From assembly GCA_951406725.2 (NCBI GenBank), contig OX597824.1, positions 84,506,001-84,570,000 of the forward strand: DNA of 64,000 nt. Direction: 5' to 3'. Position 1 is the first letter of the stretch. Each line of letters begins with the position of its first letter. This document shows, one piece after another, positions 982 through 36,663 of this stretch. The DNA is from Octopus vulgaris (lineage: Eukaryota). Both the position numbers and the translations under genes were made by a program. The notes below the pieces were generated by a model. It ran no database searches. It saw only the letters and a program-made list of their open reading frames with translations, and had not been told where the DNA came from.

Positions 982-1227
982 ATTGCAGCATGGAAGGTGT
1001 TTATAAGCCATTTAAGAAACACACAAAAACCGTTAGATTCACTTCAACATTTAAATTTAATTTGTCAAAATATTTTCATCGCTTTGAGACTGTGACCTGT
1101 TCACTGACAAAATTCGCGGTCTCAAAGCGACGAAAATATTTTGACAAATTAAATTTAAATGTTGAAGTGAATCTAACGGTTTTTGTGTGTTTCTTAAATG
1201 GCTTATAAACACCTTCCACGCTGCAAT
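982..1227. repeat. Near-perfect palindrome (114-bp arms, 18-nt spacer), probably a Penelope-like terminal repeat
   Basis: 982-1095 is the reverse complement of 1114-1227, with 4 mismatches by eye. Confidence 0.95.
1061..1111 (-). ncRNA. Putative minimal type-I hammerhead ribozyme with a G3-C8 variant core
   Basis: Minus strand reads TTTGTCA-GTGAACA-G-stem II-GAAA-ATAT-T-T-TGACAAA: a 7-bp stem I and a palindromic stem III. Stem II is GTCGC/GCGAC once CpG decay is corrected from the other arm. Confidence 0.5.
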
Positions 1228-1518
1228 CATTTTTTTTTCTTTTTGCCAAGAGCTCTTGGTGTTGCATTGATAGGTTCCCCCAACCCTTCTTTTTTTTTCC
1301 TTGTTTTTCTTTTGTAAAATATATTCCTCTTCATATTTTGAATAAAAGATGCTTTATGCAGCCCCCACGCGCGTGCGCGCACTATATATTCGTTCTTCCC
1401 TTCAGGTCTATCCTTGTTCTTATGCTTGTATCCTTTGTCTGAAATATTTTAACCTCTTCAGGAACTCTCCATCCCACGTGTCTCCTCGTGTTCCATTTAC
1501 TCCCTTCAATATTTCTAT

Positions 1519-1826
1519 TGGGTGGAGGCACATGGCCTAGTGGTCAGAGCAGCGGACTCGCGGATGAGGGATCGCCGGTTCGAATCTCAGGCTGGGCAAT
1601 GTGTGTATTTATGAGCGAAACACCTAAGATCCACGCGGCTCCGGCAGAAGGTAATGGCGAAACCTCTGCTGACTCTTTCACCACAACTTTCTCTCACTCT
1701 TTCCTTCTGCATCTTGCAGCTCACCTGCGACGGATCGGCGTCCCGTCCAGGCGGGGATCCTATACGCCAACAAAACTGGGAAAAGGGCCCTTATGAGCCA
1801 GGCATGGTTCGAGAAGGAACAAACAA
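1519..1826 (+). mobile_element. tRNA(Arg)-like SINE with 12-bp target-site duplication
   Basis: Head TGGCCTAGTGGTCAGAGCAGCGGACTCG...GGTTCGAATC; TSD CAATATTTCTAT at 1507-1518 and 1827-1838. Confidence 0.85.
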
Positions 1827-2269
1827 CAATATTTCTATGATGTGTATCTTTATCTGCGCATGCGTGTGTGTGAGAGAGAGGGGGGTTGCTTACTATACTG
1901 TATGTACCCGTAGGCGGCGAGCTGGCAGAATCGTTAGCACGCCGGACGAAATGCGTAGCCGTATTTTGTCTGCCGTTACGTTCTGAGTTCAAATTCCACC
2001 GAGGTCGACTTTGTCTTTCATACTTTCGAGGTCGATAAATTAAGTACCAGTTACGCACTGGGGTCGGTATAATCTACTTAATCCGTTTGTCTGTCCTTGT
2101 TTGTCCCCTGTGTTTAGCCCCTTGTGGGTAGTAAAGAAATATGTATATACCCGTGATTTTTTATTTGATTTTTTAAATTTCTTTTTCATTTATTTACACT
2201 TATTCATTTCTCTATTTGTAACTATTTTCTTTTCTTTCATTGTTTTTCTTTTTCTTCTTCTTCTTCCAG

Positions 2270-2575
2270 GGACTTGCCAATTCTCTGAACCCAAAATTAA
2301 GATCTTGCCGAAATGGAGGCTAAAGAAAGTGAAAGGATCTAACCTGCAGATGAAATGTGTGGTCAACTCAGTTAAAAAACCGCCGATATTTATGAAATGG
2401 TTGTTTATAAGTGTTGATCGCAATGACACGCTGGCATGTAGCAGGGGAAATAACTCTGTTTCCCTCAACATCAAGAAGCTGAAAATATTGGATGCCGGTG
2501 CCTATATATGTGTTGTGAAACTAGCTAACGGCAAGATAGTAAACAAAGATGCTGTAGTTTTCATTCTTGATAAAG
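2270..2575 (+). CDS. Internal coding exon: Ig-like (I-set/C2) domain of an LDLRAD3-like receptor; upstream exons lie outside the window or were not recognised
   Basis: Polypyrimidine tract plus CAG acceptor (2267-2269) and AAG|GTACTG donor, phase 1-1. Translation GTCQFSEPKIKILPKWRLKKVKGSNLQMKCVVNSVKKPPIFMKW...LNIKKLKILDAGAYICVV has the Ig C...W...DAGxYxC pattern. Confidence 0.8.
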
Positions 2576-2674
2576 GTACTGTATAATATATAATATGATA
2601 TAAATATAATATAATATAATATAATATATGATATAACATAATATAATATGGTATATGGTGTAAAAATCTTTTTT

Positions 2675-3070
2675 TTTCTACTCTAGGCACAAGGCCCGAA
2701 ATTTTGGGGGAGGGAACCAGTCGATTAGATCGACCCCAATACGTAACTGGTACTTAATTTATTGAGCCCGAAAGGATGAAAGGCAAAGTCGACCTCGATG
2801 GAATTTGAACTCAGAACGTAAAGTCAAACGAAATACCTATTTCTTTGCTACCCACAAGGGGCTAAACATAGAGGGGACAAACAAGGACAGACAAACGTAT
2901 TAAGTGGATTATATCGACCCCAGTGCGTAACTGGTACTTAATTTAATCGACCCCGAAAGGATGAAAGGCAAAGTCGACCTCGGCGGAAATTGAACTCAGA
3001 ACGTAATGGCAGACGAAATACCTCTCGGCATTTCACCCGACGTGCTAATGATTCTGCCAGCTCGCCGCCT
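2675..3070 (-). mobile_element. Family A SINE, head plus two tandem body units
   Basis: Head at 3070; internal junction AAGAAATA|GGTATTTC on the minus strand near 2837. Confidence 0.85.
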
Positions 3071-4390
3071 TGATATAATGTAAAATAATATAATAATAAT
3101 GTGTTGCCTCCACCCCCCGTAAAAAAAAACAGTCAGCCCAATCTGCAAGGTGGTTGGTGTTAGGAAGGGCATCCAACCATAAAACACCTTGCCAAAACAG
3201 ACACAGAAGTATGGTGTTGGCTTCTGCCTGGCCAGGTCCTGTCAAACCGTCTAACCCATGCCAGCATGGAAGGCGGACGTTAAACAATGATGATATATTT
3301 ATAGATCTCTGTGTGTATATTTGCACTGGCATTTGTTCCCACCACCACTTGACAGCCAAACCTGCCAGTTCGGAAAAGAGACCATTGGAATAAGGATCTG
3401 GCTTGAAACTTAAGTGCTGCAAAAGGGACCAATAGAATAAGTACTGGGGTTGGCATATTTGACTAAACCCTTCCAAGTGATACTCCAGCATGGTCACAGT
3501 CCCAAAGGCTGAAACAAGTTAAAAGATAAAAGTAAAATGACAAGTTGGCAGACTCAGCAGAGTGTCTGTGAGAATGCTTTGAGTTGTTACAAAGAAGAAC
3601 ACTGGTATCCCTTGAGAGCTTTGATAAATAAAAAAATATACATTCTTTTTGTAACCAAAGAAAAATGTTGTTACTCGAATGGCAAAACATCGAATGAGTT
3701 TGGAGATATTTGTTCTTGGACCGATGTGATTGTAGCAGCAGTCAAAATGTGGTTAGCCACTGGTTTGCTACTGTCTTCTGATATCTCTCATTCGCCACTG
3801 GTTCATTGCTTTAACTGTCTCTTTGATGCCTGTCTGCCATCTCATGGTTGTAGCTAAGGTGCACTGAATATATAGTGTGAGTTAGGTTCAGAAAGAAACA
3901 TGCCAAAAGATGAAATCATTACTGGAGCTGGTTCCAGATGAAGTCTTGATCAATCAAATCTTTTCAGTGATGTAGGTTACATTCTAACAAATCATGATAT
4001 TGGATATAGTGATCTAACTGATAAATATTCCCGCTACAGAGGTATTCATTCCAGCTCTCTATACTCTGAGTTCAAATCCCACTGTGGTCAACTTTACTTT
4101 CATCCTTTCAAGGTCAATAAATGATGTAACAGTCCAGTACTGATGCCAATTCTTTCTCTCTTCCTCTTTCTCAGTCTCACTTTCTGAATTTCTCCCCAGA
4201 ACAATTTCAGAATTGGAAAGGGACTCCATCAAGAGTCAAGGGTTTCATCACCATTCCTTATACAGAGATTTAATCAGTCACCCAGTTTAACACCATGTTT
4301 AGATTATTATTGTTTTTATTATTATTGTTGTTGTTGATGTGGTTGTTGTTGTTATTATAATAAATCTATTATTCTTCTCCACCGCAACAG

Positions 4391-4516
4391 AAATGCCTGG
4401 ACCCTGTAGTGAGCATCAGTTTCTGTGCCAGACATCAAGATTGTGTATCGCTAAAAAGTTCCTTTGTAACCGAGTGAATGATTGTACAGATAAATCTGAT
4501 GAGAAGGACTGTGAAG
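4391..4516 (+). CDS. Internal coding exon: LDL-receptor class A module
   Basis: CAG acceptor and AAG|GTAAGT donor, phase 1-1. CSEHQFLCQTSRLCIAKKFLCNRVNDCTDKSDEKDC has six Cys and the DCxDxSDE motif. Confidence 0.93.
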
Positions 4517-4605
4517 GTAAGTCATAAATACCTGGTGTTGTTTGTTGTGTAAGACATTAAGCAGGTCATATGGTCCTTATAGATGCAGACAATACGTAAC
4601 TCTAA

Positions 4606-4997
4606 TCTATATATATAAAGCTGAAGTTGTCTCTGTAAGGCAGATTTGGTAGCCTTCAACTAACACTATCTCCGCCATGACCCTGCAGTGCAAGTTGACC
4701 AAAATTGAGAGTATGATAGAAGAAGGCTTGCTCTTTATTCCGTAGGACATAAAATTCAAATCGGACCATGTTAAGACCAAAAATTATTTACATCAAAAAG
4801 GTGCTTTTTTTTTCTATGAAAAACCCTATTTTTTACGATTTTTTTACTGCTGTGTCGCCATTTTTCGGTGTATTTCAACCAGAAAAATGTTCACTTAAAG
4901 AGAATAACAAGCTACATAATGCAAAATTTTTACTTTTCAAAAATTCCAATAGAAAAGGGTCAAAACAAACCCGAGCAATGCCAGGCGATACTGTTAG
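4606..4997 (+). mobile_element. Non-autonomous Helitron-like element
   Basis: Starts A|TCTATATATATAAAG and ends with a subterminal GC-rich hairpin remnant (CCCGAGCAATGCCAGG) then TTAG|T (degenerate CTAG); A-T target site. Confidence 0.65.
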
Positions 4998-6251
4998 TAT
5001 TTAATATTAATAAACACACACACACATATATATGTGTGTGTATGTATTATATATATTCTTATACAAGAATGTTCTTGATAGTGACTTCAAAGTTTTGATT
5101 AGCTAAGCCATCATTGGACTGTGATGTATTAGAGTTAGTTTTGCCTTTATATAGTCTCTGTTGAGTTTAAATCATCTTTGGGTGTGTGTGTGGTTTGAGT
5201 GAGTTTTTATGGAAAGGTGTTTTGGAAAAATTTTTATTGATTAAATTTGGGAGAATTTATTCATGCATGTAGAACTTTGTAAACAAACTTGCAGGTGTTT
5301 CTCTTTCGTTAGGCTGTCAAAAGGTGTGACTATTGGATTTAATCTTTTTGCATTGACAATATAAAGATCAAAGATACAAAGTCCAGTGTTTAAGCCCTTA
5401 GTAATTAGGTGCGTCAATTTTTTTTTCACAAAAGAATATAGGTTGGTGGTAAGTTTTTGGCTGGTCCTATCTTTACTTGTTGTTATTTAAGGCATTTCCT
5501 GTTTTCAGTGGTGATGTTGGGGTTATTAGTCAGGTATGTCATGGCTTTGTTAGTATGGAAAATTGTTTCTCTTTGATGTTCACAAAAATATTTGAGTAGG
5601 GGGTTGTATGTTAATATGTTTCTCTCTATGTAAACACTACAACACATGAACACCTTTATACAAGGTGTTACTATTACAAATCTTTGAAGTGAATCATATC
5701 CTTGAACATCTATGCAATAGGAATGTTTTAAAGAGAATATAATAAACAAGTTTTGCAGGTGTACAATTCCCCGTCGTTATTTTAAAGTCTTTAAATATAC
5801 ACTCTGTATAATGTATAATAGCCAAAGAAGCAAACTCATTAGGTGGAATACTCTGTAATTGTTTCCCATAAAAAATTTCCTGTAATTCCATATCATTCAA
5901 TGTGATGAGCCAGAACCTGGATTATACTAGAGCAATGCTCCATAACCATTCTTTCACTTGTGGTTTACTTGTAATCTTTTCAAAATTCAGCGTCACACCT
6001 GAACTAAAAACATAACTAAATGTATAGGGAAAAAAATTATACTCAGGTTACACTGCGGCACACTTAGCATTGTCTGTTGACATACCAGTGTGCCATGACA
6101 TACTGGTTTTGGGGCACTATACTAGAGTACTTCTTAAGTACCTGCCCAGATTACAGATCCATATTCATTTATATATAAATTATATATATAGGTGCAGGAG
6201 TGGGTGTGTGGTAAGAAGCTTTGCTTCTCAAGCACATGGTTATGGGGTCAG

Positions 6252-6788
6252 TCCCGAGGTCGACTTTGCCTTTCATCCTTTCGGGGTCGATAAATTAAGT
6301 ACCAGTGAAACACAAGGGTCGATGTAATCGACTTAATCTGTTTGTCTGTCCTTGTTTGTCCCCTGTGTATTTAGCCCCTTGTGGGCAGTAAAGCAATAGG
6401 TATTTCTTCTGTCGTTACGTTCTTAGTTCAAATTCCACCAAGGTCGACTTTGCCTTTCATCCTTTCAGGGTCGATAAATTAAGTACCAGTTATGCATTGG
6501 GGTCGATATAATCGACTTAATCCATTTGTCTGTCCTTGTTTGTCCCCTCTATGTTTAGCCCCTTGTGGGTAGCAAAGAAATAGGTATTTCGTTTGACTTT
6601 ACGTTCTGAGTTCAAATTCCACTGAGGTCGACTTTGCCTTTCATCCTTTCGGGGTCGATAAATTAAGTACCAGTTATGCATTGGGGTCGATGTAATCGAC
6701 TTAATCCGTTTGTCTGTCCTTTCTGTGTTTAACCCTCTCTGTGTTTGTCCTCTTTGTGTTTAGCCCCTTGTGGGTAGTAAAGAAATAT
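6252..6788 (+). repeat. Three head-to-tail family A SINE body units (about 184 bp period), immediately upstream of the terminal exon acceptor
   Basis: Junctions AATA|GGTATTTC at about 6399 and 6583. Confidence 0.9.
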
Positions 6789-6838
6789 ACGTGTGTATAG
6801 TATTCACCCTGTTCCTATTTTTTAATCTCTCTTTTCAG

Positions 6839-7659
6839 CTTCACACCCTACATATGCTGTGACCAAACATCCTGATACTGAACTTGATGGTCAAGCATTC
6901 TTCATGCAAACTGCTGTTTATTCTGTGATTGGATGTGCTATTGGTGTGATACTCCTCATCTCCGTACTCATCATCGCAGTTTTCCGAGTTCGAATGAAGC
7001 GTGCCGCCGTGCGACGTGCCATGGCACCAAACGACTCCGGCATGCGAGGGAATGCAGCAACTTCAGCGGCAGGAGGATCTTCGGCTGCGTCCGGATCAAA
7101 TTCGGTGCCGCCTGAATACGACCCTTTCCTCTCTCCGAGCAGTCAGCAGCAGCAACAGCAGCAGCAGCCCTCGTCGTCGTCGTCGTCACAGTTCGGCAAC
7201 ATCATTGTGAATGTTAACAACGGTGTACAGTACGTTCCTGGCAGTGACTTCCCCCAGTACATTGAACCGCCGCCCCCTTACTCCACGGTGGTCGCAGGCC
7301 GGGAGTGTTCCCCGCCACCGCCGTACAGCACAATCGACCCATCTGCGCCCCCGCTGCCCCCCTTGCCACCGCCACCCCCACCGCCATCATCATCTGCAGC
7401 AGCAGCATCATCGCCGATCCTCAATTTGTCCACGCCAACCCAACAAACCGAACCCCCAGAAAGAATCACCCCTCTCTTACCGCCACCTCGGAGTATGTCT
7501 GCTTTAACGCCACCAATCTTGGCCGACCCCACGCAGACCGGAGAGTTACCACGCACACTCCCTGCACAGTTGTCTGCAGCCACCGCCGATGGCCATGCTC
7601 TTCCAGGACACATTATTGTAAAAGATGGTAAAATTATTCTCACACCAAGGAACTCGTGA
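6839..7659 (+). CDS. LDLRAD3: Terminal coding exon: TM helix and cytoplasmic tail of an LDLRAD3-like protein
   Basis: TTTTCAG acceptor, phase 1, in frame with the LDLa exon. TM segment VYSVIGCAIGVILLISVLIIAVF is followed by basic RVRMKR. IVNVNNGVQYV resembles vertebrate LDLRAD3 NVNNGIQYV (recalled). PPEY and two PPPPY motifs. TGA at 7657-7659. The symbol means 'like'. Confidence 0.85.
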
Positions 7660-7959
7660 CAATGTGGTTTAACATCAAAATTATAATTATAATAGAAATG
7701 ATATTATAACAAAAAAAAACAACAAAAAATGCTGATAAGAAAAATTAAAAAGGTTGTAATTTGTATTTCCACTAATTGTGGTGAAATTTACCTTGGATAT
7801 TTTCTCTAGCAAAGTAAAACTTGTATTAAAAAAAAGAAAAAGGAGATTTTTTTTAACGGTTGCAGTAAGCTACGAAAGAAAACAAAAATTTGGTATTGAT
7901 AATGGAAAGAAATATTTCTGAAAGAGAATCCCTTTAACTCTCTAAGAAGAGAAGATATA

Positions 7960-8074
7960 TTTATAGATATGTATGTAAGTGTCTCTGTGTGTGTATATGT
8001 ATGTACATAAATATATACATATATATATATACACACACATACATATATATATATATATACACACATGCATATAC

Positions 8075-8126
<52 letters not shown>

Positions 8127-8262
8127 ATATATATATATATAATATATATATATATATGTATATATATATATTTGTGTTCACACACACACATATATATATA
8201 TGCATGTGTGTGTGGGTGTATGTAGCTATATATAAATGCATGTAATATGTCTGTGTGTATGT

Positions 8263-8304
<42 letters not shown>

Positions 8305-8441
8305 TGTGTGTATCATGTGTATGTGTATTTAACATACATATAAATATTACATTGCATATATTATAAACATACACACACACATATATACATATATATACAT
8401 GTATATATACATACATACATAAATATATGTGTGTGTGTGTA

Positions 8442-8492
<51 letters not shown>

Positions 8493-8815
8493 ATATTCAT
8501 GCATATAAACATATATATTTATTGATGATGATATATACATACATACATATATATACATGTGTGTGTGTGTATATATATATATATACATACACACATGTAT
8601 GTATGAAATAGAGATAATTTATATGTATATTTTATATAAATTTATATATATATTATATATTTATATATAAATATATATGTATATGCATATACACACATAT
8701 ATCTGTAAATATATATATTTATGTATACGTGTGTGTATATATATATGTATGTATGCATAATATATAGACAATATATGTAGGTTGTATGTATATATGTAAA
8801 TATATATATATACAC

Positions 8816-8862
<47 letters not shown>

Positions 8863-9415
8863 CATACATATATATATATTGTGTATATATGTATATATAT
8901 ATTTCATACATATATATGTGTATATATATATAAAATATACATCTAATATAGAAAACAAAGATGGAATGAATTTGTAATATCACTTCCAGGATGTTACGAC
9001 ATATATTAAACAGTATGGTTTTGTGTGTGTGTGCCTGTGTGTTTGTGTGTGAGAATGAGAGTCGGTGAGTGAGTGTGTGTATGTGTATATGCGTGTGTCG
9101 TATGCGTGAGAATAATTCCACTTTAAATTTAAACCAAAAATAATTTTTGTCCCTTTCATAGATTCCATGTGTTTGTAATATTTCTTAGGCTTGAAGATTT
9201 CAAGAGTTTGGCGTTTCTTGGTGAGTTCAGTGGAAACGACTCATACATTTCACGTTTGGCTGTTAATTTTTTTTTTTTTTTGTTTTCTATTTAATTCATT
9301 GTTATTTGTTTTATTCATTTTTTTTTTTTTTTTTGGCTCATTTTCTTCTGTTTAAACTTTTTATGGGAGACCTTTTCATTCTAAGGCACATCTTGAAAAT
9401 TCAGCTGATATTTTT

Positions 9416-9449
<34 letters not shown>

Positions 9450-9578
9450 ATATTAAATATGCTGTGTATCTTTGTGGAAAAGGTACCAATTTGCAATTTA
9501 ACTGTGGATTCAGATGTTACCTTGGTCACCAAACCATGTCACTTTCTCTCTCTTTTCCTCCTTACCCACCCTGCTCAT

Positions 9579-9616
<38 letters not shown>

Positions 9617-9676
9617 CCATACATATATGTATATATACACACACACATAGATGCAAATATATATACATACATATAC

Positions 9677-9711
<35 letters not shown>

Positions 9712-9883
9712 TACATACACACACATGTACAACTATACACATACACATATATACATATGTATATAAATATATGTACATGTGTATATATGTGTGTATGTAT
9801 ATGTATATATATATACATACATATGTATGTATATATATGTGTGTGTATATATGTATATATACATACATATGTATGTATATATA

Positions 9884-9935
<52 letters not shown>

Positions 9936-9990
9936 CATATGTATGTATATATATGTGTGTGTGTGTGGATATATATATATGTATATACAT
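7960..9990. repeat. Compound (TA)/(CA)/(TG) microsatellite tracts (7960-9110 and 9575-9990)
   Basis: Direct inspection; these tracts are the source of the spurious YI/CV-repeat ORFs. Confidence 0.95.
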
Positions 9991-10309
9991 ATTATCAGAA
10001 TATTGTATATTCTTGCCAACAGCAGTGAAGCTAACTCTTACATTCCTTTATTTGTAATTATCATCATCATGGGGTAATTAGTGGGAGTTTTCAATCTAAT
10101 CAACTTGGCACCCTCTTCCCCTCCACATCCATGGTCTTGTACCTATGATAGTAATTATCATCATCATTATTATTATTATTATTCTGATTTAAAATCTCAA
10201 TGAGGAAGTACCAGTTATGAACTGGGACTGATTTAATCAAGTGTGCTCTCCTCCCTTCCCCTATTCAAAATTCAGGCTCTGTACTTGTTAGAAATCTTTA
10301 TTATTATTA

Positions 10310-10342
<33 letters not shown>

Positions 10343-11371
10343 TATATGAAGATGGTGAACTGGCAGATTGTTAACATGCTGGACAAAATACTCGGCGGCA
10401 TTTTGTCCTGTCCTTACATTCTGAGTTCAAATTCTGCTGAGGTCGATTTTTCCTTTCATCCCTTTGAGGTTGATAAAATAAGTACCAGTGAAACACTGGG
10501 GGTCGATGTAATCAACCATGCCCCTCCCCCAAAAATTTCAGGCCTTGTGCCTATAGTAGTAAGAATTATTATTATTATTATTATCATCATCATTATATAT
10601 AGACGGTCAACTGGCAGAGTCCTTAACATGCTGGGCAAAATGCTTAATTGCATTTCGTCCAGCCCTACATTCTGAGTTCAAATTCCACCGAGGTCGACTT
10701 TGCCTTTCATCCTTTTGGGAGTCGATAAAATAAAGTACCAGTAGAACAATGGGGACCGATGTAATCGACCCCACCACCAAAAAAAAAATTGCTGGCCTTG
10801 TACCATTATCATCATCATCATCATTATTATCATTATTATTATCATCATTATTATTATTATCATTATTGTTATTATTATTGTTTCATTTGATTGCTACTGC
10901 TGTTGCTGTTGTTATTGTATTCCATGATGGTCAGTGGTAACTGTTGATTCATCTTACTTGCAATGCAAGGTGGTTAACAACTGCTTGTTTACTAATGTCA
11001 ACATGGTGGCCACGTGAGGGTCGACACCTTTCACCTACAATGCAATATATTCTTCTTTATTCCCAGTATTTGAAAACAAATTAACCAAAATTATAACTTT
11101 TTTTTAAAATCATGTTTTTTTTACCCCTCCCCCAAGGACATTCCACCAGGTCTAAGGATTTCTCTAGAATTGTAAAAATCTTATCTTGCATGTAGTGACT
11201 ACCATTCAACACCCTTTTACTGTCCACACCTACCTTGTATAGGTGATGTGTGTGTGTGTGTGTGTGTGTGTGATCATATATATATATATAGATTGAGATG
11301 AATATGGTACTTAAGCTGAAGGCACCAGAATTTAGTATATTAGCCATATAATTTAAAATAAGGTGATTATA

Positions 11372-23113: not shown

Positions 23114-23174
23114 TTATCACTGATGAAGAGAAGGTTCTTATGAATTAACTCTGAAATCGGGTCCGATATGATAA
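23114..23174 (+). ncRNA. Type-I hammerhead ribozyme (canonical core) in a Penelope-like terminal repeat, copy 1
   Basis: TTATCA-CTGATGA-AGAG...CTCT-GAAA-TCGG-GT-CCGA-T-A^-TGATAA; all three stems pair; predicted cut after 23168. Confidence 0.75.
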
Positions 23175-23346: not shown

Positions 23347-23598
23347 AATGTAGGATAAAATTTAAAAAAAAAAAAAAAATTTCGAAAAAATTTTATCTTA
23401 CATTAGATGTAAATTTAATAGTGTTCACCTTCCGGACTCTCCCACTCTGTGAGTGCCTCAGTTCAAATCACACATGTCTTGAATGGGCTGGAGTATTTCT
23501 ATTTTGGATTTATTTGGGGTACTTAGTTGTACTCATGACTTAGTGTTTGCTTCTTCCATGGGTATGAGTAAGTATCTCATTTACTTCTTTGCTACATG

Positions 23599-23657
23599 TA
23601 TCACTGACGAAGGGAGGGTTCTTTATGAATTAATCCTGAAATTGGTCCGATATGGTA
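23599..23657 (+). ncRNA. Type-I hammerhead ribozyme, tandem copy 2
   Basis: TATCA-CTGACGA-AGGG...TCCT-GAAA-TTGG-T-CCGA-T-A^-TGGTA; lies in a direct repeat of about 250 bp (23070-23330 vs 23555-23802). Confidence 0.68.
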
Positions 23658-23801
23658 ATAATGGAATTTTTTAGAGATTTCTGTCAACCTTTTTTTGAGT
23701 AGCGTGCGTACTGGGGAAAAAATTACATGGTAAATGGACAATATGTCCAATTTTCGGCATATTTGGCATTAGAAATTTTTTCGTTTGCCCTTATTTATAA
23801 G

Positions 23802-23838
<37 letters not shown>

Positions 23839-26580: not shown

Positions 26581-26600
26581 TATGTGTATATACAGAGTGC

Positions 26601-26663
<63 letters not shown>

Positions 26664-26834: not shown

Positions 26835-27070
26835 TATATAGCAATAAAAAAATTGGAGGGGACCAATAGGTGGTTCCTCAACTTTTAGACATTATATTAT
26901 GTTATCTTCTTTATTTATTTACTAAACTGATGATTACAATAATATGTAAAGCATAATATGTTATATGTATGTATATTATTGTAATTATCAGTTTAGTAAA
27001 TAAATAAGTTAATATAATATAATGTCTAAAAGTTGATGAACCACTTATTGATCCCCTCCATTGCTATATA
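26835..27070. repeat. Imperfect palindrome, arms about 100-110 bp
   Basis: TGGAGGGGACCAATAGGTGGTTCCTCAACTTTTAGACATT...ACTAAACTGATGATTACAATAATAT is mirrored at 26973-27070; CTGATGA at 26927. Confidence 0.88.
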
Positions 27071-27104
27071 TATAATATATATATATATATATAATATATA
27101 TATA

Positions 27105-27505
27105 GGCGTAGGAGTGGCTGTCTGGTAAGTAGTTTGCTTACCAGCCACATGGTTCCGGGTTCAGTCCCACTGCGTGGCACCTTGGGCAAGTGTCTTCTAC
27201 TATAGCCTCGGGCCGACCAAAGCCTTGCGAGTGGATTTGGTAGACGGAAACTGAAAGAAGCCCGTCGTATATATGTATATATATATATGTGTGTGTGTGC
27301 GTGTGTGTTTGTGTGTCTGTGTTTATCCCCCTAGCATCGCTTGACAACCGATGCTGGTGTGTTTATGTCCCCGTCACTTAGCGGTTCGGCAAAAGAGACC
27401 GATAGAATAAGTACTGGGCTTACAAAGAATAAGTCCCGAGGTAGAGTTGCTCGATTAAAGGCGGTGCACCAGCATGGCCGCAGTCAAAATGACTGAAACA
27501 AGTAA
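27105..27505 (+). mobile_element. Full-length family B tRNA-derived SINE; other copies at about 39195-39575(-), 49175-49570(-), 53820-54228(-) and 63195-63790(-)
   Basis: Head GGCGTAGGAGTGGCTGTCTGGTAAG...GGGTTCAGTCCC, internal (TA)(TG) tract, and end GACTGAAACAAGTAAAA. Confidence 0.9.
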
Positions 27506-27539
27506 AAAACAAAAAAAAAGATATAAATCAAATCAAAAT

Positions 27540-28017
27540 CACTTCGATGACTGGCATCCGTGCTAGCGGGTTGCAAAGAGCACCATGCGAGTGTGATCGT
27601 TGACAGAGCGGCTTTTCGAGTATGCTCATTACCAGTGTCGCCTTACTGGCACTTATGCCTGTGCTAGTAGGGTGCCAAAAACACCAACTGGCTTCCGTAC
27701 CCGTGACACGTAAAAGGGCACACTTCGAGCGTGATTGTTACCAACGTCGCTTCACTGGCACCCGTGCCGGTGGGCACGTGTAAAAAGATTCGAGCGAGGT
27801 CATTGCCAGTACCGCCTAAACTGGCCCCTGTGCAGGTGGCATGTAAAAAGCACCCACTACACTCTCGGAGTGGTTGGCGTTAGGAAGGGCATCCAGCTGT
27901 AGAAACTCTGCTAGATCAAGACTGGAGCCTGGTGCAGCCATCTGGTTGCCAGCCCTCAGTCAAAACCGCCCAACCCATGCTAGTATGGAAAACGGACATT
28001 AAATGATGATGATGATA
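27540..28017 (+). mobile_element. RTE LINE 3'UTR fragment with (GAT)n tail; similar copies at about 3110-3295, 37797-38050, 39640-40182, 57420-57742 and 57970-58137
   Basis: Matches the 3'UTR contiguous with the RTE ORF end at 40912-41740; internal GGTGGCACGTAAAAAGCACC subrepeats. Confidence 0.8.
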
Positions 28018-28607
28018 TATATATATCATACATAGAGAGAAAATTACACCTTTATTATAGATCTCTCCATATAAAGCTGACAAATGCATGAGGATTTAGC
28101 TCGGATTTGTATTTCATTTACATTTACTGGTGTCCAATTATTGAATATTGTTAACCAAATCCTTTTTATACTAAGTGCTTTATTGATTTCTGACAGGATT
28201 TTTTCATCCCTTTGTTTCTTCTAATTATATATATACATATATATATGATACATAAACATACATAAACACACATTCTCTTTTAGGAAAAAGAGTTTTTAGT
28301 ACAGCAAAGGATGTAATATTTAAACGAATCTAGTTGTATATTTACAAAACATAACTAAAGTACTTTAGCTATAGCAGAAAACAATACTGTATCTAAAAAG
28401 CTTGTAATTATAAATGGGGTCAGGCTAAGTAGAAGACATCGTCTGGATTAAAACTAGCCAATAGGAGCTTATGGGAAGATCAACTTTATATATAGGACTT
28501 GAGGTGATTATTTTAGACATTTTTAGGGGGGCTTATTTTTTGCCATTAAATACAGTATATAAAGTAATGAGAGAGAGAAAGATGAATGTAAATAGTGTTT
28601 TACTTAC

Positions 28608-28731
28608 CAAAGTCTATATCTAACATAGTTGATTGAGCACCTTCAATAAGAATCTTGCGTCCATTTTTAATGGCATTATTCAAGTAGAGGACAGAGTCTA
28701 CCACAAAAGGTTTCACCTTTTCTCGTAACAA
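28608..28731 (-). CDS. ADSS: Adenylosuccinate synthetase exon
   Basis: AG/GT boundaries, 124 nt; [41 protein letters not shown]. Confidence 0.95.
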
Positions 28732-31318
28732 CTAAAAGAAGAGAATGAGACCTGTGACGAAGGAGACCAAACTCCTTATCATTTATTGACAGTCTTGTTA
28801 GTTGGCCGAAGAATAAATAAAGGAATTACATTACAAAAAGGCACCAACCCCCTTGGAATGAAGAACTAAAGACTTAAGCAGGGAGTTATTTTGCAAAGGT
28901 GATTCACTAAATGAAAATAAAAGGGTGCTGATTATATGCTTAAATGCCAAATGAGAGAATATAAAGATTTTTGAAACAATTTTATCTTTATATTTAAAAA
29001 AAAATTTTTTTTTTTATTTACAATTCTCTATCTCAGAGATGAAGAATTTATATTTACATTAGTCAGACTGTTACCCTCAATTTGATTGTTGCTCAACAAC
29101 AGAGTTCAACACAAGACACCTGAAGATGGCTGGAGTATACAACAGCCAAGATGTAGTGAAAGTAACTATCAAGTTGAGGACACCAGTTTGGCTAGTGTAA
29201 ATAGTGTACATGAGAAAAATTTATTTACATCTAAGCAACTGTTTAACAGGTTTGATCTCAGATCATTGTCAGGTGTTTTATTCCTGGACATGTGCATTGT
29301 TCAAGACAGGATTTTAACAAGGAATTTTTATTTCTGAATTAAGGGTAGCAATGTCCTTTAAATGGTGATAACATCGGCAGTTGTTAGAAAATCAGACAGA
29401 GTGCCTTGCAGTATTTGTTCAAACTTTGTATTCAAATTCTGTTGTGTCTGGGGAGAGTCATTTTCTTTTTGTGCCTTATAATATAACACACTCACCAGTA
29501 AAATTTCCACTTTTTTTTCTTATTTTTATTTTCCTAAAATTTTTGTTGCGTCTTGCAACCTTTGTATTCAAACCCAATTGAGATCAATTTCACTTTTCAA
29601 GATCAATAGAATGAAAGTACCAAACCAGGGCGATAAATTAATGGAACTGTTAGAGAGGTGGACAAGATGGTTTGTGGCATCGGTTTCAGTTCTTTGCATT
29701 TTGACAGCAAGGCCTGCAATGACGCCAGTGCAAGTTCTATCAGCTGAATCAGAAACCTTTACTTTGGATAAACATCGATGGTGTGAAGAAAGGAAACTTG
29801 CATACAGTGACAGGTGTCAGGTGCCCAAAAATGTTTTACCCAGGATCTTGGACTAGGCTCCACCACAAGGTCCAATCCTTGTTGCAATGCACTGGCCTGT
29901 GTGTCTCAATGGCCATGAGATCTGTGCCAGCAAAGTGCAAGATCCTGATGGAATATCTCATGCTGAATAGGTCAAAGGTCAGAGGCCAGACTAATATGGA
30001 CCACCTCTTCCAAAAAAAATGGCAAAGTTACAGAAGGATCAATGACAATTCAAAACCAAGAAGATCCATGAGAAGGTTTTCCAATTGGAAGGAAGCAGAA
30101 AAGACAACTCAGAGTCAAGAAAGGTAGAGCAAAGTTGTCATGGGCCTGTGCTCCATGGGAAGTAAAGAGATGAAGTAAGTGGATCAGGCTAGGAAGAAGA
30201 GTAATAATGATTTCTGACACACATAAAGGTGGGGGTAGGGAAATAGCATTGATTTAATCAACTTTGTCAGTTTTTGGTATCTATTTTACTGAACCTGGAA
30301 GAATAAAATACAAATTGACCATGGTAAGATTTGAACCCACATGCAGAGCTTGTGAGGAGAGGGGAACAGTTGATGATATTGATTCCCAGTATATAACTGG
30401 CTGACTTCACCTTTCATCTTTTCAGGGTCGATAAAATAACTAGCAACTGAGGACTGGGGTCGATGTAACCAACTTAACTACTCCTGGGTAAGAGTATAGA
30501 AACTCGAACCCCTACTCCACTCTGCCAAGTCACGTTGAGCCAGTGTGGTAGAGTAGGCTCATGAAACCAGTTTGATCACAAGCTCAAATTCATGGCCTCC
30601 ACATCAGAGTGTGGTTGGTGGAGAGAACATGCAGTGGGCTGAACACAGGTAATCCAATCCAATACAATATAATTGGTACTTATTCTATAACCCTGGAAGA
30701 ATAAAATGCCAAGTAAGCCTTAGCAAGATTTGAACTCACATGTAGAAAAATAATGAGGAGTCATAGCATAGGTGCAAGGCCAGAACTTTTGATGGGTGGA
30801 GGTAACGGTTGATTACATCAACCTTAGGATATGACCGGTACTTATTTTATCAACCTGGGAAGGATGATAAGCTAACTTTGGAAAAATTTGAACTTGGAAA
30901 ATAAAGGGCTGTGTTTGAATACGGTAAGGCATTTTGTCTTTCATTCTAACAATTTTGACATATTTATAAAACAAAGAGTTAAGAAATAGATTACGCAAGC
31001 AGAAAATGTGTTAAATAATGCAACACAAAAGATGCAGTTTATACATGCAAGATAAGATGTACCTACACACATTATATAGTGTGCTGAAAGCCAATTGTAA
31101 ATGTATACATTTATACATAAGAGAAAGATGTGGTGCTCAGACTCACCAAGGAGGGCAGTGACAAAGACAAAACAATGATGATGATAGACATCTATATATA
31201 TATATATGTATATAAGTATTTCTATATTGAATTTTTCCCTGTAAGTTTGGAATAATACTCCCTCATATTATCATATATATATATATATATATACTTTATT
31301 TAAAAGCAGCAGAAATTC

Positions 31319-31369
31319 AACAAAACCTGTTACTCGGAGTTTCACGTTCCCGTTCGTCGGACTGTTTTG

Positions 31370-31371
<2 letters not shown>
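31319..31371 (-). ncRNA. Minimal type-I hammerhead (U4C variant) between (TA)n tracts, sense to the ADSS pre-mRNA
   Basis: AACAAAAC-AGT-CCGACGA-ACG-GGAA-CGT-GAAA-CTC-C-GAG-T-A^-AC-AG-GTTTTGTT; GUA cleavage triplet. Confidence 0.65.
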
Positions 31372-31417
<46 letters not shown>

Positions 31418-31734
31418 TGTATGTGTGTGCATGCGTGAATGAAACGAGTGAGTGAGTGAGTGAGTAAATGGATTTATATAAAGCTTTTGAGAGCAGAAAT
31501 GTTATTTTGCATATTTAGGAGAGAAAAATCAGCAACAATTTCTATATCTTATAATTGGTAGCTAGCAAATGATTGAATGAGTGAACCAAGGTCTCACATG
31601 CGAGAATTTTACAATGTAAAGGAAGCTAACAAAAACAGGAAGGAGTAGAGGAACTGTTTAGCTGACAGTGAGTTAATATAGAAGTCTATTAAGAAGTGAG
31701 CTAACCTACATCTCTTGTAGGTTAAGGTTAGGAT

Positions 31735-32650
31735 TTGGTTCTGTGTCAGGGAGAATCACTACTGATGCTATCTTCCTAGAAAGCCAACAGCAGGAGAAGT
31801 ATTTAGCCAAAAATATACTACTGTACTTGGCTTTTATTAATTTAGAGAAAGCCTTTGACAGAGTCCCTCACTTCTTCATCTGGTGGTCACAGCAGAAGCT
31901 AAGGGTAGATGAGTGGCTGGTGAGAGCTGTCCAAGCCATCTACAAGGATGCTGTTAGTAAGGTGAAAGTCAGCAACGAGTAATGAATTTAGTGTGCAGGT
32001 AGGAATTCACCAAGGCTCAGTTCTCAGCCCCACTCTTGATTATCATAGTCCTTCAAGCCACAACAGAGGAATTAAAAACTGGTTACTCATAGGAGCTTCT
32101 CTATGCTGATGACCTTGTTCTTGTAAGTAAAACTATAGTAGAATTAGAAGAGAAATTTTAAGTGTCGAAGCAAGGTCTGGCATGAAAGGTTAATTTTGTT
32201 AAGAATGAAATATTAGTGAACAGGGAAGCAAATAAATTACTAATCCCTTGAGGGAAGTAACCCAATATGACATGTAGAAAAAGTATAGGTAGAAATTCCA
32301 TCCAATGCACCCAGGGCAAACTATGGACACATATGAGGTACTGGAAAATCACAAGAAGGTTGACAGAGAGAGTACTTTTTGTGTGTGGGAATTCCCAGGG
32401 AGATCCTTAGAGGTAGTAGATATTTTCGGTTACCTAGGTGACCAAATTAGCAGTGGAGGAGGATGCTCTGAGAGCATAGTTGGTAAGAGAAAAATTGAGT
32501 ATCAGAGGCATCAGAAGTAGTGTGCAAGAAGGAAAAGTATGCTGGTATGATTATGTGATATGTATGGATGAAGACAGCTGCACTAAGAGGTATCGATACT
32601 TAAATATGGAGGGAATCTGTGGAAGAGGAAAACCCAGGAAAATGTGGATA
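31735..32650 (+). mobile_element. Degenerate RTE LINE reverse transcriptase fragment
   Basis: GRITTDAIF...LYLAFINLEKAFDRVP, HQGSVLSP and LLYADDL motifs, with stops and frameshifts. Confidence 0.9.
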
Positions 32651-33039
32651 TATATATTTGCAAAGGCTTGGCAGGCATCTCAGCTAGCGGGACTCGCTAC
32701 CCTGGACTGATGACGGACAAGACCCAGAAACATGCATGTCTTCAGGTTGCTAGTCCTAGCTGGTGGGGGTGCTTGCCTCCCCTTTGCAAATATAAGGACA
32801 CAGGAAATGTGTCAAAGCCAATAGGAAACGTCGATGCTTTCTAGGGCTATATAGCGGTGGTGTGATTCCCTTTACGGGACTGTCACATTATGTTGACATT
32901 ATACAACCACTCCCGCTCTCTCTCTCTCTCTCTCTATATATATATCTATCTATCTATCTATATATAGTTGAAATTTACAGGAAAACAAGACAAAGACAGG
33001 TGCATAAACAACAAGCAGGTGTATAAGTTTGATGCTTGG

Positions 33040-34010
33040 TCCCCAGTCATTGCCTCTGTGAGGCCCAATGTTTGAAGGTCATGCTTCACCACCTCATCCC
33101 ATAGTTTCCTTCCACAGTTAGGCTGTGGCACTTCCTCACACAGCTGTCCTCATCCATACATAACATATGACCATACCAGCGCAGTCGTCTCTCTTGCACA
33201 CCACATTTGATGCTTCTTATGCCCAAATTTTCTCTCAGGTCACTTAAACTCTGTCATGTATGCACACTGACATTACACATCCAGCAGATCATACTAGCTT
33301 CATTTATTTCAAGCCTACGCATGTCCTCAACAGTCATGGCCCATGTTTCACTACCTTGTAGCACGACAGTTTGCACACATGCATCATACAGTCTACCTTT
33401 CATCCTGAGCGAGAAGACCTTAGTTGCCAGCAGCAGTAGGAGCTCCCTGAATTTTGCCCAGGCTATTCTTATCCCAGCTGCTACACTCTCAGAGCAAACC
33501 ACTCCCACTATAGATTTGGTCACCTAGGTAGCAGAAGCTATCAACTACTTCTAGTTTTTCCTCCTGTCATGTGATGGAATCTGTTTACTGTACATCTTCA
33601 GTGTTTATTGCCCCTGTGCATCTGCCATACACAGAAACTATCTTCCCAGTTAACTTTCCTTTCATATTGCTACACCTTTTGTGTCCATAGCTTACACTGG
33701 GTACATCACAGAGTTTCTACCCATGCCTTTTCTACAGATCGAGTAGGGCCATCTACCTGAAGGGGTTTGTGATTTGTTAGCTACTTACAAAAACCTAGGT
33801 TAACCCTAAGGCCCTTCGATTCTAAACCTTGCTACCACACCCTAAACTTTGTCTCTAGTCCTGTCAGTGACTCAGCTATTAGAGCAAGGTCATCAGCAGA
33901 GAGGAGCTCCCAGGGGCAGCCTGTCTTGAATTCCTTTGTTACTGCCTGGAGGACTATAATGAATAAGAGGGGGCTGAGAACAGATCCTTGGTGAACCCCT
34001 ACTTCTACTA
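33040..34010 (-). mobile_element. Degenerate RTE LINE RT/C-terminal fragment, same family, opposite orientation
   Basis: GVHQGSVLSPLLFIIVLQA, ELLSADDL, and KGRLYDACVQTVVLQGSETWAM. Confidence 0.9.
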
Positions 34011-34823
34011 TATATACATATATATTACATAATCATCATTATTTAACATCCATCTTCCATGCATGCATGGGGAGGACGGTTGAAAGGAGCTAGCCACATA
34101 GAAAATCTACCCAAGGATACCATGTCTATTTTGGCAGGGGTTTTATAACACCAACCACCCTGCAAAGTGGACTCGGTGCTTTTTACGTGGCACTAGCATA
34201 GGCAAAGTTAGTTTTGGCAACATTTTTACAACTGGATGTCCTTCCAGACAGCTACCGCATTAGTGCAGACTGGATACTTTAATGTGGCACCAGCACAGGC
34301 AGGGTAACCAAATAACTCACAAGACAAGGAATTATGAGATGGGCAGAGCATTTGTGTCAGAGGATGAAAGTTAGAGGGTGACTAAGAGACAGAGAGACAG
34401 AAACAGGTGTCTTGCCACAACGGGGGGGGGGGGCGTATTACAGGAGGTGAACCAGTATCGAATGATGAAAGGTTAGAGTGTAACAGAGAAATAGAGGCAG
34501 AAATAGGTGTCTTGATATAGAGGAGGTACATGGTTACTCAGTGAAAGAGAGAGAGAGGAGACAGAGAGTGAGAGAGCAGTACAGAAAGAGGCCAGAAACA
34601 AGTGTGCTACAATAAAGGTGATACTTGGTTACCTAGTCAGAGGGAAAATGAGGGGAGAGAGAGAGTGACCAAAGGGAAAGAGAGAGTACGAAACACCAAA
34701 AATGTAAGAGAGAGCAGAAAAGAAATGGTGTAGTGCTGGGGTATACTCACAAGTAACAAGAATGAGTGTAGAAACTGGTTAGAAAAACAGGGAGTGGGTA
34801 TGGGTAGTGGGGAGCAATCATAC

Positions 34824-34862
<39 letters not shown>

Positions 34863-34885
34863 CATACATATAATATATACTAGAC

Positions 34886-35181
34886 CAGTGCTTCTCAAAC
34901 TATCTGATGTGGCATACCGGTAGCTTTTCCTTTCCAATGTGCCAGGGACCAGTAATATTTCTTAGTAATATTAATTCATACAGGAAACAATATATATATA
35001 ACGAATATAATAAAAGTTGACAAATTTTTTTTCATCTTATATTTATTTTGTAAACAAACAATCCAATAATTACATAAGCATTTTACAGTGTTTCTTTCTT
35101 TTCTGGAAAATCTCCGTGTCCTGGCAGCTCAAGGCTCGTGGACCGGCACTGGTCTGCGGACTACCACTTTGACTAGCACTG
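34886..35181. mobile_element. hAT-type MITE with 8-bp TSD
   Basis: TIRs CAGTGCTTCTCAAA / TTTGACTAGCACTG; TSD TACTAGAC at 34878-34885 and 35182-35189. Confidence 0.9.
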
Positions 35182-35624
35182 TACTAGACTACCCTTGACC
35201 TGCTGGGTCACCAGGAAAGTCTGAGTTTTCCAGCAACAAAGTTTGGTTTTTGTGGGTTCTTTTGTTTTTTAATTTTCCAGGTTATTTCTCATGCTTTCAA
35301 CGAATGTGACATCGAAATCACATGTAAATGGCTCCTTTTCTCAGAAAAGGTAAGATATGGCTGCTATTTCACATATTACCTTTAATAAATTAGCTTTCAT
35401 AAAGTTCACCTTCAAAAGGCCATGACGAGTCAGAGTACGACTGGGTGCTTCTACTTCACAAGCTGCTCTAATGCAACAACAGCGATATCAAGTCAGTTTG
35501 TCATTCATTATGTTTCATATTTACTAAATCAAGCAATTATTCTTCGTCTATTCTAATGCAATATCTAAACAGTTATATACATATTGCTGTAATTAATTTA
35601 CACATTGCATTAATAGACATTTTT

Positions 35625-36285
35625 CAACATCTATGCAATGGCACAAGGATTACCAAAAAATTGATGCAGACAGTGTTGGAGGCAACAATACTGACTGGGA
35701 AAGCAAGTGGTGAAGATGTTTTCATTCCAAAGATTCCTCTGAATCCTTCCAACACACAAATTGATTTCAAAAGGCAACAATTCCCACTGAGATTAAGCTT
35801 TGCAATGAGCATCAACAAAGCACAGGGTCAGACATTGGAAGTGGTAGGCCTTAATCTTGCAGAACCTGCTTTTTCTCATAGACAGCTCTATGTCGGATGC
35901 TCTAGAATTGGGGATCCGGAAAATTTATTTCTCTATGCATGCAATGGCAAAACCAAAAACACTGTATCACGAAACACTGCAAGACTGAAATTTTGGAACA
36001 AAGATGACTCTCCCTGCAACGACCTCTCTTGCCAACTTACGACAACCTCGCCAACCTCTCTCAAATTCTCTTGCCAATCTCCAACAATCTCTCTCACCAA
36101 CCTTTGACAATATTTTTCACCGACCTCCGAAAACCTCTCCCTCCACTAGCCGACAGTTTCTGTACTTTTAAGTGACAGAATATACATATTTTGTGGCAGT
36201 TATAACAAACTTGCCTCCTTATATTGGAGTAATAAGACCTTTCAGTACATTATTACATCAGGGAATTACCAGGCACACCAGCTAG
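35625..36285 (+). mobile_element. Helitron 3' fragment: PIF1-like helicase C-terminus and CTAG end
   Basis: LCNGTR...FKRQQFPLRLSFAMSINKAQGQTL...FSHRQLYVGCSR; ends CCAGCTAG|T at 36285. Confidence 0.88.
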
Positions 36286-36385
36286 TATGGATATATATAT
36301 ACATACATATATCTATATATATATATTTCGTTTTTGGATTTGGTTTGCAAGATTCTTTATATGAGTTCGTGTGTTGAAGCATATT

Positions 36386-36663
36386 CTATTGTGTCTGGGG
36401 AGAGTCTCTTTCTTTTTGTGCCTTATTATGCAACACACTCACCGGTAAAATATCCACGCTATTCTTACTTTCATTGTCCTAAAATTTTCGTTGAGTCTTG
36501 CAACCTGTTCAATAATTTTCAGTAGTCAAAACTATTGAAAAGGTTGCAAGACACAATGAAAATTTAAGGACAATAAAAATAAGAAAAAAGTGGAAATTTT
36601 ACCGGTGAGTGTATGTTACAATATAAGGCACAAAAAGAAAATGACACTCCCCAGACACAATAG
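36386..36663. repeat. Imperfect palindrome, arms about 130 bp; solo arm at about 29441-29563
   Basis: CTATTGTGTCTGGGGAG...CTTGCAACCTGTTCAATA is mirrored by TATTGAAAAGGTTGCAAG...CTCCCCAGACACAATAG. Confidence 0.92.

What the first reader, a model, noticed from the sequence alone, without database searches (positions are those of the whole stretch)
982..36663. Hammerhead-like folds whose cores covary at the 3:8 tertiary pair (C-G, G-C, U-A)
Seen: several repeat families share the layout stem I / 7-nt core / (1 nt) / stem II / GAAA / palindromic stem III / stem I. The cores are CTGATGA (23120), CTGACGA (23604), CTGAAGA (11957, 29120, 38391), CCGACGA (31360-31354, minus), GTGAACA (1104-1098, minus) and TTGAAAA (36535-36541). 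Established: hammerheads form a C3-G8 Watson-Crick tertiary pair that tolerates compensatory swaps, and Penelope-like elements carry minimal type-I hammerheads with palindromic stem III. Inference: GUGAACA is a G3-C8 swap and UUGAAAA is a U3-A8 swap. These would be non-canonical ribozyme families invisible to CUGANGA motif searches. Caveats: the 1061 copy has a weak UUU triplet, the 36535 family has only about 3 bp of stem I, and its other arm reads TTGAACA.
Basis: partly seen in the sequence, partly recalled or inferred. Interest (0 to 1): 0.78.

Follow-up and report, generated by a model that had tools for sequence, protein, structure and literature searches.

The report
Swapped-core hammerheads in octopus retroelements
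Thousands of copies of two related jumping-gene families in this genome carry a small hammerhead-shaped RNA motif whose paired core letters 3 and 8 read G-C or U-A instead of the usual C-G; the G-C form is likely a natural, compensated variant that would still cut RNA, but cutting is untested and sister families tolerate unpaired cores.

Summary
The odd cores are real family states, not decay. GTGAACA (1104-1098, minus) belongs to family A: 6,079 exact G3-C8 motifs genome-wide, 66 of 73 unselected copies, present in both pseudo-LTRs of full-length Penelope-like elements (RT plus GIY-YIG). TTGAAAA (36535) belongs to related family B (3,658 U3-A8 motifs). Stems I-III covary across 12 subfamily representatives, and no hammerhead column varies among A subfamilies (0 of 38, against 11 of 49 flanking). 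Sister families carry C3-G8. Against strict covariation: U3•G8 and C3•A8 subfamilies also spread, a young family has A9C, and at most 2 of 99 copies begin at the cut site. The window's two copies are decayed; the other named sites have C3-G8, and 29120 has lost GAAA. U3-A8 in Penelope hammerheads is published. I found no natural G3-C8 in print (one key paper unavailable), but this scan noted it before in phage and protist DNA. Laboratory data show G3-C8 rescues cleavage. Verdict: new variant of a known kind; cleavage untested.

The parts
920..1111 (-). Family A short copy (pseudo-LTR end plus ORF start of a Penelope-like element), left arm of the palindrome; ends at the distal tail site
   Evidence: 90% identical to family A copy L087 over 191 nt; arms 972-1095 and 1114-1237
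1061..1111 (-). Family A hammerhead fold: stem I 1111-1105 with 1067-1061, stem II 1096-1092 with 1082-1078 (two CpG-type losses in this copy), GAAA 1077-1074, palindrome AATATT, U17 at 1068; predicted cut between 1068 and 1067
   Evidence: window copy folds at z -0.85, intact copy L249 at z -4.26
1098..1104 (-). G3-C8 core GTGAACA
   Evidence: 66 of 73 unselected family copies
922..1011 (-). First 30 codons of the family A ORF
   Evidence: same peptide begins P0002 and continues into RT and GIY-YIG in L249 and L253
1114..1239 (+). Inverted, 5'-truncated family A copy that starts inside stem II (no core) and ends near the proximal tail site
36521..36663 (+). Family B short copy with U3-A8 core TTGAAAA at 36535-36541; stem II and stem I damaged in this copy
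   Evidence: 93% identical to L040; window copy z 0.06, intact L040 z -2.13
36318..36519 (-). Inverted family B copy, core TTGAACA at 36512-36506 (single-copy change), running through the ORF start to the distal tail site
29433..29563 (-). Third family B fragment, truncated inside the core
31322..31372 (-). Family E hammerhead fold, C3-G8 with U4C (CCGACGA, 31360-31354), palindromic stem III, GUA triplet; one stem I change in this copy
   Evidence: CCGACGA in 20 of 20 best copies, which were chosen by likeness to this one
23114..23174 (+). Canonical C3-G8 hammerhead fold of another repeat family; related copy at 23598-23658
   Evidence: CTGAYGA in 20 of 20 best copies
38387..38466 (+). Canonical C3-G8 hammerhead fold with long loop II; inverted twin with core at 38201 (minus); 11957 looks like a decayed relative
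   Evidence: C3-G8 in 12 of the 13 copies printed, of 15 loci fetched; 11957 judged by eye only
29116..29160 (+). Decayed canonical hammerhead: CTGAAGA kept, GAAA lost

Best explanation
The GTGAACA and TTGAAAA sites are the hammerhead motifs at the pseudo-LTR/ORF junction of two related Penelope-like retrotransposon families, whose source elements carried G3-C8 and U3-A8; the G3-C8 form is likely a compensated core that would cleave slowly and only with help (a second copy pairing through the stem III palindrome, or the element's own protein). Shown: position in both pseudo-LTRs of full-length family A elements, about 95 nt before the start codon; family-wide fixation; stem covariation; C3-G8 in sister families. 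Inferred: a capped transcript starts about 22 nt (A) or 16 nt (B) before position 3; the RT starts at one of two sites inside the ORF start and copies uncut RNA back to its 5' end, which gives the 150-220 nt copies and, with an inverted second copy, the palindromes in the window. Inferred history: C3-G8 went to U3-A8 through U•G or C•A transitions more than once, whereas G3-C8 needed two transversions on the long branch to A, with no intermediate left in this genome.
For: 6,079 G3-C8 and 3,658 U3-A8 motifs, controls 0. 66 of 73 copies picked on downstream sequence alone read GTGAACA; only 157 A-type copies lack G3 and none of the first 100 listed is C3-G8. L249 has the motif at 1242 and 5503 around an RT/EN frame; L253 has a 1,025-residue frame with GIY-YIG (E 1.8e-5, above cut-off) and motifs in a direct and an inverted repeat. 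In 12 subfamily representatives U4, G5, A6, G12, A13, A14, A15.1 and G10.1 are invariant, 3:8 pairs in 11 of 12, 12 cells change on both sides, 0 of 500 shuffles reach this; in 9 of them stems I and III also show double changes. Among A subfamilies 0 of 38 hammerhead columns vary against 11 of 49 free columns (Fisher p 0.002). A and F proteins are 55% identical in RT-EN while blastn finds no significant match between their untranslated regions (best E 1.0). In a complete double-mutant scan the G:C swap was the only rescue in this region (PMC9901934, passages); C3G/G8C partly restores cleavage of a lizard Penelope hammerhead, which needs the element's protein (PMC11167929, passages). Two 3' ends (38 and 23 of 90 matches) fit the published PLE tail.
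Against: Pairing at 3:8 is not strict in the lineage: U3•G8 in 44 of 100 loop-AAGAA motifs (my count) and in 20 of 35 C1 copies; C3•A8 in 6 of 8 copies of one supported clade and 7 of 14 of another. The young family F, with intact 1,312-residue frames, has A9C in about 82 of the first 100 of 4,786 matches. At most 2 of 99 family A copies begin at the cut site, and one of these is explained by stem I microhomology. The stem III self-duplex is marginal (-0.2 kcal/mol for A, positive for B and F). The G-C state arose once, so it is a single event; representatives were hand-picked and related, which inflates the shuffle tests. The extra base after position 9 is G here, H in the published consensus. 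No RNA data were obtained. RT and endonuclease were not found for family B.
Confidence: 0.62

Rival explanations
1. The motif descends from a hammerhead and is kept as a folded signal (protein binding, RT loading, transcript start or translation), but catalysis is relaxed or lost in this lineage; the Watson-Crick look of G3-C8 and U3-A8 is partly luck.
For: U•G, C•A and A9C masters all spread; copies come from uncut RNA; hammerhead mutants did not affect insertion in vitro and no reads ended at the cut site for the lizard element (PMC11167929).
Against: The unpaired catalytic bases U4, G5, A6, G12-A14 stay fixed across families 55% identical in protein; the two transversions in A landed on the one swap known to rescue; 0 of 38 against 11 of 49. 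Uncut templates are also expected for a monomer that cannot form stem III.
Confidence: 0.3
2. The motif is not under selection in A or B; each family simply multiplied whatever its source copy carried.
For: High copy number reflects amplification, not selection on each copy; each state is one or few events.
Against: Loop II and flanks changed among A subfamilies while core and stems did not; double changes in stems I, II and III between families.
Confidence: 0.06
3. Chance look-alikes in the spacers of fold-back DNA transposons (MITEs).
For: Both window sites lie at the centre of long palindromes and fold no better than shuffles.
Against: Many copies have no inverted partner, junctions vary, the sequence runs into a coding frame and into full-length RT/GIY-YIG elements, and canonical CUGANGA homologues exist.
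Confidence: 0.02

Closest known systems
Minimal type I hammerheads of metazoan Penelope-like elements (Cervera and De la Pena 2014, PMC4209133)
   Same: In pseudo-LTRs; extra base between 9 and 10.1; G10.1-C11.1; palindromic, almost absent stem III; mostly solo truncated copies; U3-A8 variant reported in Schistosoma Cercyon elements (about 1,300 hits).
   Different: G3-C8 is not mentioned in the parts read (main text parts 1-2 of 4, supplement part 1 of 3 plus a term search); extra base is G rather than H; UUU triplet; U•G, C•A and A9C families.
Poseidon element of Anolis carolinensis, PAc (Frangieh et al. 2024, PMC11167929)
   Same: Hammerhead at the pLTR-ORF junction; two RT start sites inside the ORF start give the tail; uncut RNA is the template; engineered C3G/G8C partly rescues.
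   Different: PAc is naturally C3-G8 and its ORF starts in stem II; here the start codon lies about 95 nt after position 3 and the protein has a CX2-5CxxC linker as in Neptune and Nematis.
Natural hammerhead core variants (Perreault et al. 2011, PMC3088659)
   Same: U3-A8 in several natural ribozymes; U4C (as in family E at 31360) known from a viroid.
   Different: G3-C8 and A9C are not among the variants named in the section read.
Engineered G3-C8 hammerheads (Roberts et al. 2023, PMC9901934; review PMC8495972)
   Same: Same base swap, active in vitro.
   Different: Made in the laboratory in tertiary-stabilised ribozymes, not a natural minimal motif.

Membership tests
EN+ Penelope-like element (family A) | Single ORF with PLE-type RT motifs | tested here: met
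   LPPKFA, TDKSG, MDVVSLYP, GGAIG, YVDD in P0003; Pfam RVT_1 does not hit it directly but hits relatives P0005, P0054, P0058 below cut-off
EN+ Penelope-like element (family A) | C-terminal GIY-YIG endonuclease with two Cys between GIY and YIG | tested here: met
   PF01541 25.4 bits, cut-off 22.6, in L253; motif
EN+ Penelope-like element (family A) | Direct and inverted pseudo-LTRs, 5'-truncated inverted copy, tail | tested here: met
   L249, L253; both orientations in 38 of 49 loci and two 3' end clusters
EN+ Penelope-like element (family B) | RT and endonuclease downstream of the motif | tested here: inconclusive
   One of 3 extended copies continues for about 220 residues at 38-52% identity to the N-terminus of family F, then stops
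Neptune or Nematis clade | CX2-5CxxC linker between RT and EN; placement by RT phylogeny | tested here: inconclusive
   Linker present in A and F; no named reference proteins were on hand for a tree
Minimal type I hammerhead | Literal C3 and G8 of CUGANGA | tested here: not met
   G3-C8 in A, U3-A8 in B
Minimal type I hammerhead | Watson-Crick pair possible between 3 and 8 | tested here: met
   A and B; but not in some sister subfamilies
Minimal type I hammerhead | U4 G5 A6 A9, G12 A13 A14, A15.1-U16.1, NUH triplet | tested here: met
   Kept in A and B (UUU triplet); A9C in family F
Minimal type I hammerhead | Stem I, stem II with G10.1-C11.1, palindromic stem III | tested here: met
   damaged in the two window copies
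Minimal type I hammerhead | Match to an Rfam hammerhead model | tested here: inconclusive
   No hit for A nor for two canonical controls; none among the 150 of 345 rows shown for the window
Minimal type I hammerhead | Self-cleavage 3' of position 17 | not testable with these tools
   No assay; genomic copies show no pile-up of 5' ends at the cut site

The most novel reading that the evidence does not exclude
One Penelope-like lineage has walked its hammerhead core through C-G, U•G, C•A, U-A, G-C and A9C, and family A is a naturally active G3-C8 ribozyme present in about 6,000 copies: a ready-made natural series that can show whether Penelope hammerheads are kept for cutting, for protein-assisted cutting or only for their fold.
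Probability: 0.45. Interest if true: 0.65.

Novelty: new variant of a known kind. Interest (0 to 1): 0.5.

Why it matters
The 3:8 swap is a textbook laboratory proof of the hammerhead's active fold; a large natural G3-C8 family would show evolution crossing the two-transversion valley, and it means motif surveys that demand CUGANGA undercount hammerheads (about 9,700 motifs in this one frame here against 17 canonical, plus some 4,000 A9C). The role of hammerheads in Penelope-like elements is still open in the papers read; six natural core states in one lineage, with intact parent elements for two of them, make that question testable side by side. It is not a new ribozyme class or a new element type.

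Tried and rejected
Rfam on the window and on three short stretches gave no hammerhead, also for canonical controls: uninformative. PDB sequence search with the A protein: 0 hits. Metagenome scan for relatives with DNA: 1 weak locus of 109 candidates, not used, so no comparison across species was possible; the ENA relatives came without DNA. No RNA reads were obtained, so expression and cleavage in vivo are open. Idea that C3-G8 copies with loop AAGAA form a subfamily ancestral to B: rejected, C3 is no more common with G8 (8 of 53) than with A8 (4 of 46). Idea that short copies start at the cut site: rejected. Idea that the 5' boundary is a splice acceptor (branch-point-like AACTAAC, pyrimidines, YAG in L249): not excluded, but no shared upstream exon was seen and a non-templated G precedes the AG in 12 of 23 copies (p 0.005 against 25%), which fits a capped start better. 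The first subfamily comparison was dropped because of an offset artefact and redone. A full-length B element was not found. Papers not held: Lunse 2017, Przybilski and Hammann 2007, Nelson and Uhlenbeck 2008, Martick and Scott 2006.
Full report
Observation. A scan for the whole layout found 5 sites in the window (23120, 23604, 38391, 38201 minus, 1104 minus) against 0.15 per window in 20 shuffles. The GTGAACA and TTGAAAA sites lie at the centres of palindromes (arms 972-1095/1114-1237 and 36424-36519/36528-36623). These two window copies fold no better than shuffles (z -0.85 and 0.06), whereas intact copies from elsewhere do (z -4.26 and -2.13). The genome is an octopus by the names of the closest proteins.

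Families A and B. DNA searches gave 2,029 and 1,432 first-look candidates. Intact copies show an unpaired G after position 9, a 5-bp stem II with G10.1-C11.1 (GTCGC/GCGAC in A, GTTGC/GCAAC in B), GAAA, a palindrome (AATATT or AATT), U17 and stem I (7 bp in A; 3+3 bp with a bulge in B). Exact patterns on this frame gave 10,054 matches with positions 3, 7 and 8 free, 6,079 for G3-C8, 3,658 for U3-A8 and 17 for C3-G8; all reversed controls were 0 (the first pattern ends two bases later, so the numbers do not add exactly). To avoid selecting on the core I took the first 100 of 8,536 matches to a downstream-only pattern and read 99 distinct copies: 73 reach the core without a gap and 66 of them are GTGAACA. 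Only 157 A-type copies lack G3, and none of the first 100 listed is C3-G8. G3-C8 is therefore the state of the source elements.

What the repeats are. About 95 nt after position 3 the copies enter a short frame shared by A, B and older families. A profile of it found P0002, which begins with the family A peptide. Its continuation matched 143 places in the genome; 20 were fetched. L249 carries GTGAACA motifs at 1242 and 5503 around an RT/endonuclease frame; L253 has a 1,025-residue frame, a motif in the downstream direct repeat and one in an inverted repeat. The protein has PLE-type RT motifs, a CX2-5CxxC linker and GIY-YIG, the layout given for Neptune and Nematis elements (PMC8557442, introduction and section 11 read). 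Short copies end at two clusters about 125 and 180 nt after position 3 (38 and 23 of 90 matches) and 38 of 49 loci hold both orientations, matching the PLE tail and inverted copy (PMC11167929, PMC8557442, passages). For B, one extended copy runs about 220 residues into a homologous N-terminus but no RT was found.

The 3:8 pair across the lineage. Searches with free core positions uncovered older and younger relatives. A tree of 255 copies with positions 3, 7, 8 and 9 masked (282 found, 27 dropped for lack of downstream homology) separates A (support 1.0, long branch), D and F, C1, and B with its older branches; A and F proteins group together with support 1.0 among 69 relatives. States: D and F-old C3-G8; C1 U3•G8 in 20 of 35; one supported clade C3•A8 in 6 of 8; another 7 U3-A8 and 7 C3•A8 of 14 (68 of 76 loci); loop-AAGAA motifs 44 U•G, 40 U-A, 8 C-G, 4 C•A and 4 other of 100 (my count; many of the U-A are young B); B U3-A8; A G3-C8. 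Family F, with intact 1,312-residue frames, has C at position 9 in about 82 of the first 100 of 4,786 matches. In 12 hand-picked representatives 3:8 pairs in 11 (4 C-G, 3 U•G, 2 G-C, 2 U-A), two stem II pairs change on both sides, and 0 of 500 shuffles reach the observed pairing; in the 9 that align without gaps stems I and III each show a double change. These rows are related, so the shuffles overstate significance. A more independent test: among 42 unselected A copies, no hammerhead column carries a subfamily-level variant (0 of 38) against 11 of 49 free columns (p 0.002).

How it most likely works. Shown: location, fixation, covariation. From papers: minimal PLE hammerheads do not cut as monomers and cut weakly as dimers (PMC4209133, main text parts 1-2 of 4); the lizard PAc hammerhead cuts only with the element's protein, C3G/G8C partly rescues, and uncut RNA is the insertion template (PMC11167929, passages); the G:C swap was the only rescuing double mutant in the CUGA region (PMC9901934, passages). 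Inferred: short copies begin about 22 nt (A) or 16 nt (B) before position 3, often with a non-templated G before AG (12 of 23 unselected A copies not extending upstream; GAG in 12 of 35 A and 12 of 44 B), as expected if RT copies a capped, uncut transcript to its end. At most 2 of 99 copies begin at the cut site. A transcript spanning both pseudo-LTRs would hold two motifs that could pair through the palindrome, although that duplex is marginal. I put homology to PLE hammerheads above 0.9, and retained cleavage by A at about 0.55-0.6.

The other sites. 23120 and 23604: one canonical family (20 of 20 best copies). 38391 and 38201: canonical, long loop II (12 of 13 printed); 11957 looks like a decayed relative and was not searched. 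29120: canonical core, GAAA lost in this copy. 31360: CCGACGA in 20 of 20 best copies, a C3-G8 core with U4C, a change known from a viroid (PMC3088659, passages and one section part). These samples were chosen by likeness to the window copy. None is a partner in the 3:8 swap.

Novelty. U3-A8 is in print for PLEs and for other natural hammerheads. For natural G3-C8, ten searches of the library returned only engineered cases in the papers I opened (also PMC3884650, PMC8495972, PMC6765202, PMC13725137, PMC7229834 as passages; the bioRxiv retrozyme preprint, part 1 of 5). A term search of the Craig 2021 supplement found no GTGAACAGG; of the Cervera supplement I saw part 1 of 3 and a term search, one file was not searchable. 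Lunse 2017, with many PLE hammerhead variants, was not held and could contain it. Earlier notes of this scan report G3-C8 in phage hammerheads and, with an extra base, in protist PLEs; nothing was noted for this sequence or genome. I did not test those notes.

Verdict. Observation partly confirmed, interpretation partly supported. A real, abundant and apparently constrained G3-C8 hammerhead variant in a Penelope-like family with intact parents, beside a known U3-A8 variant, within a lineage whose core is unusually tolerant. New variant of a known kind; interest 0.5.

Noticed in passing
L254-L256, L260-L262 (G000, family F): Young Penelope-like family with intact 1,312-residue frames whose hammerhead has C at position 9 (CTGATGC) while stems I and II keep pairing through compensated changes; about 4,000 copies; an older branch has the canonical A9.
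   Followed up: partly
L249:1200-1241 and short copies genome-wide: Short A and B copies start sharply at a YAG, often with an extra G in front; could be a cap-templated G at a transcript start, or a splice acceptor (A has a branch-point-like sequence and pyrimidine run).
   Followed up: partly
window 31322-31372 (minus), L198-L217: Young short family with U4C core (CCGACGA), two 3' ends, inverted pairs and TA-repeat targets; parent element not sought.
   Followed up: partly
window 42542-44400 (+): Broken PLE-like RT and endonuclease frames (motifs seen by eye; no Pfam hit); no match to the A or F proteins.
   Followed up: partly
window 46487-47053 (+): GIY-YIG fragment (E 0.002, below cut-off) preceded by a Cys-rich linker; no hammerhead found behind it by the scan.
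   Followed up: partly
window 35472-36107 (+): Helitron-like helicase C-terminal fragment (weak UvrD_C_2 and Herpes_Helicase hits) next to the family B palindrome.
   Followed up: no
window 17201 (minus): Another CTGAAGA ... GAAACGTACGTA site with a long AT-rich loop II, resembling the 38391/11957 type.
   Followed up: no
window 2250-2575, 4496 and 6826-7659 (+): Likely exons of a host membrane protein (Ig-like frame, Cys-rich piece, transmembrane segment and proline-rich tail); the repeats would lie in or around its introns.
   Followed up: no
window 49681-50909 (minus): LINE-type RT fragment with a long open frame.
   Followed up: no
P0002: A public octopus gene model fuses the family A ORF start to a methyltransferase domain, probably a misjoined model.
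   Followed up: no
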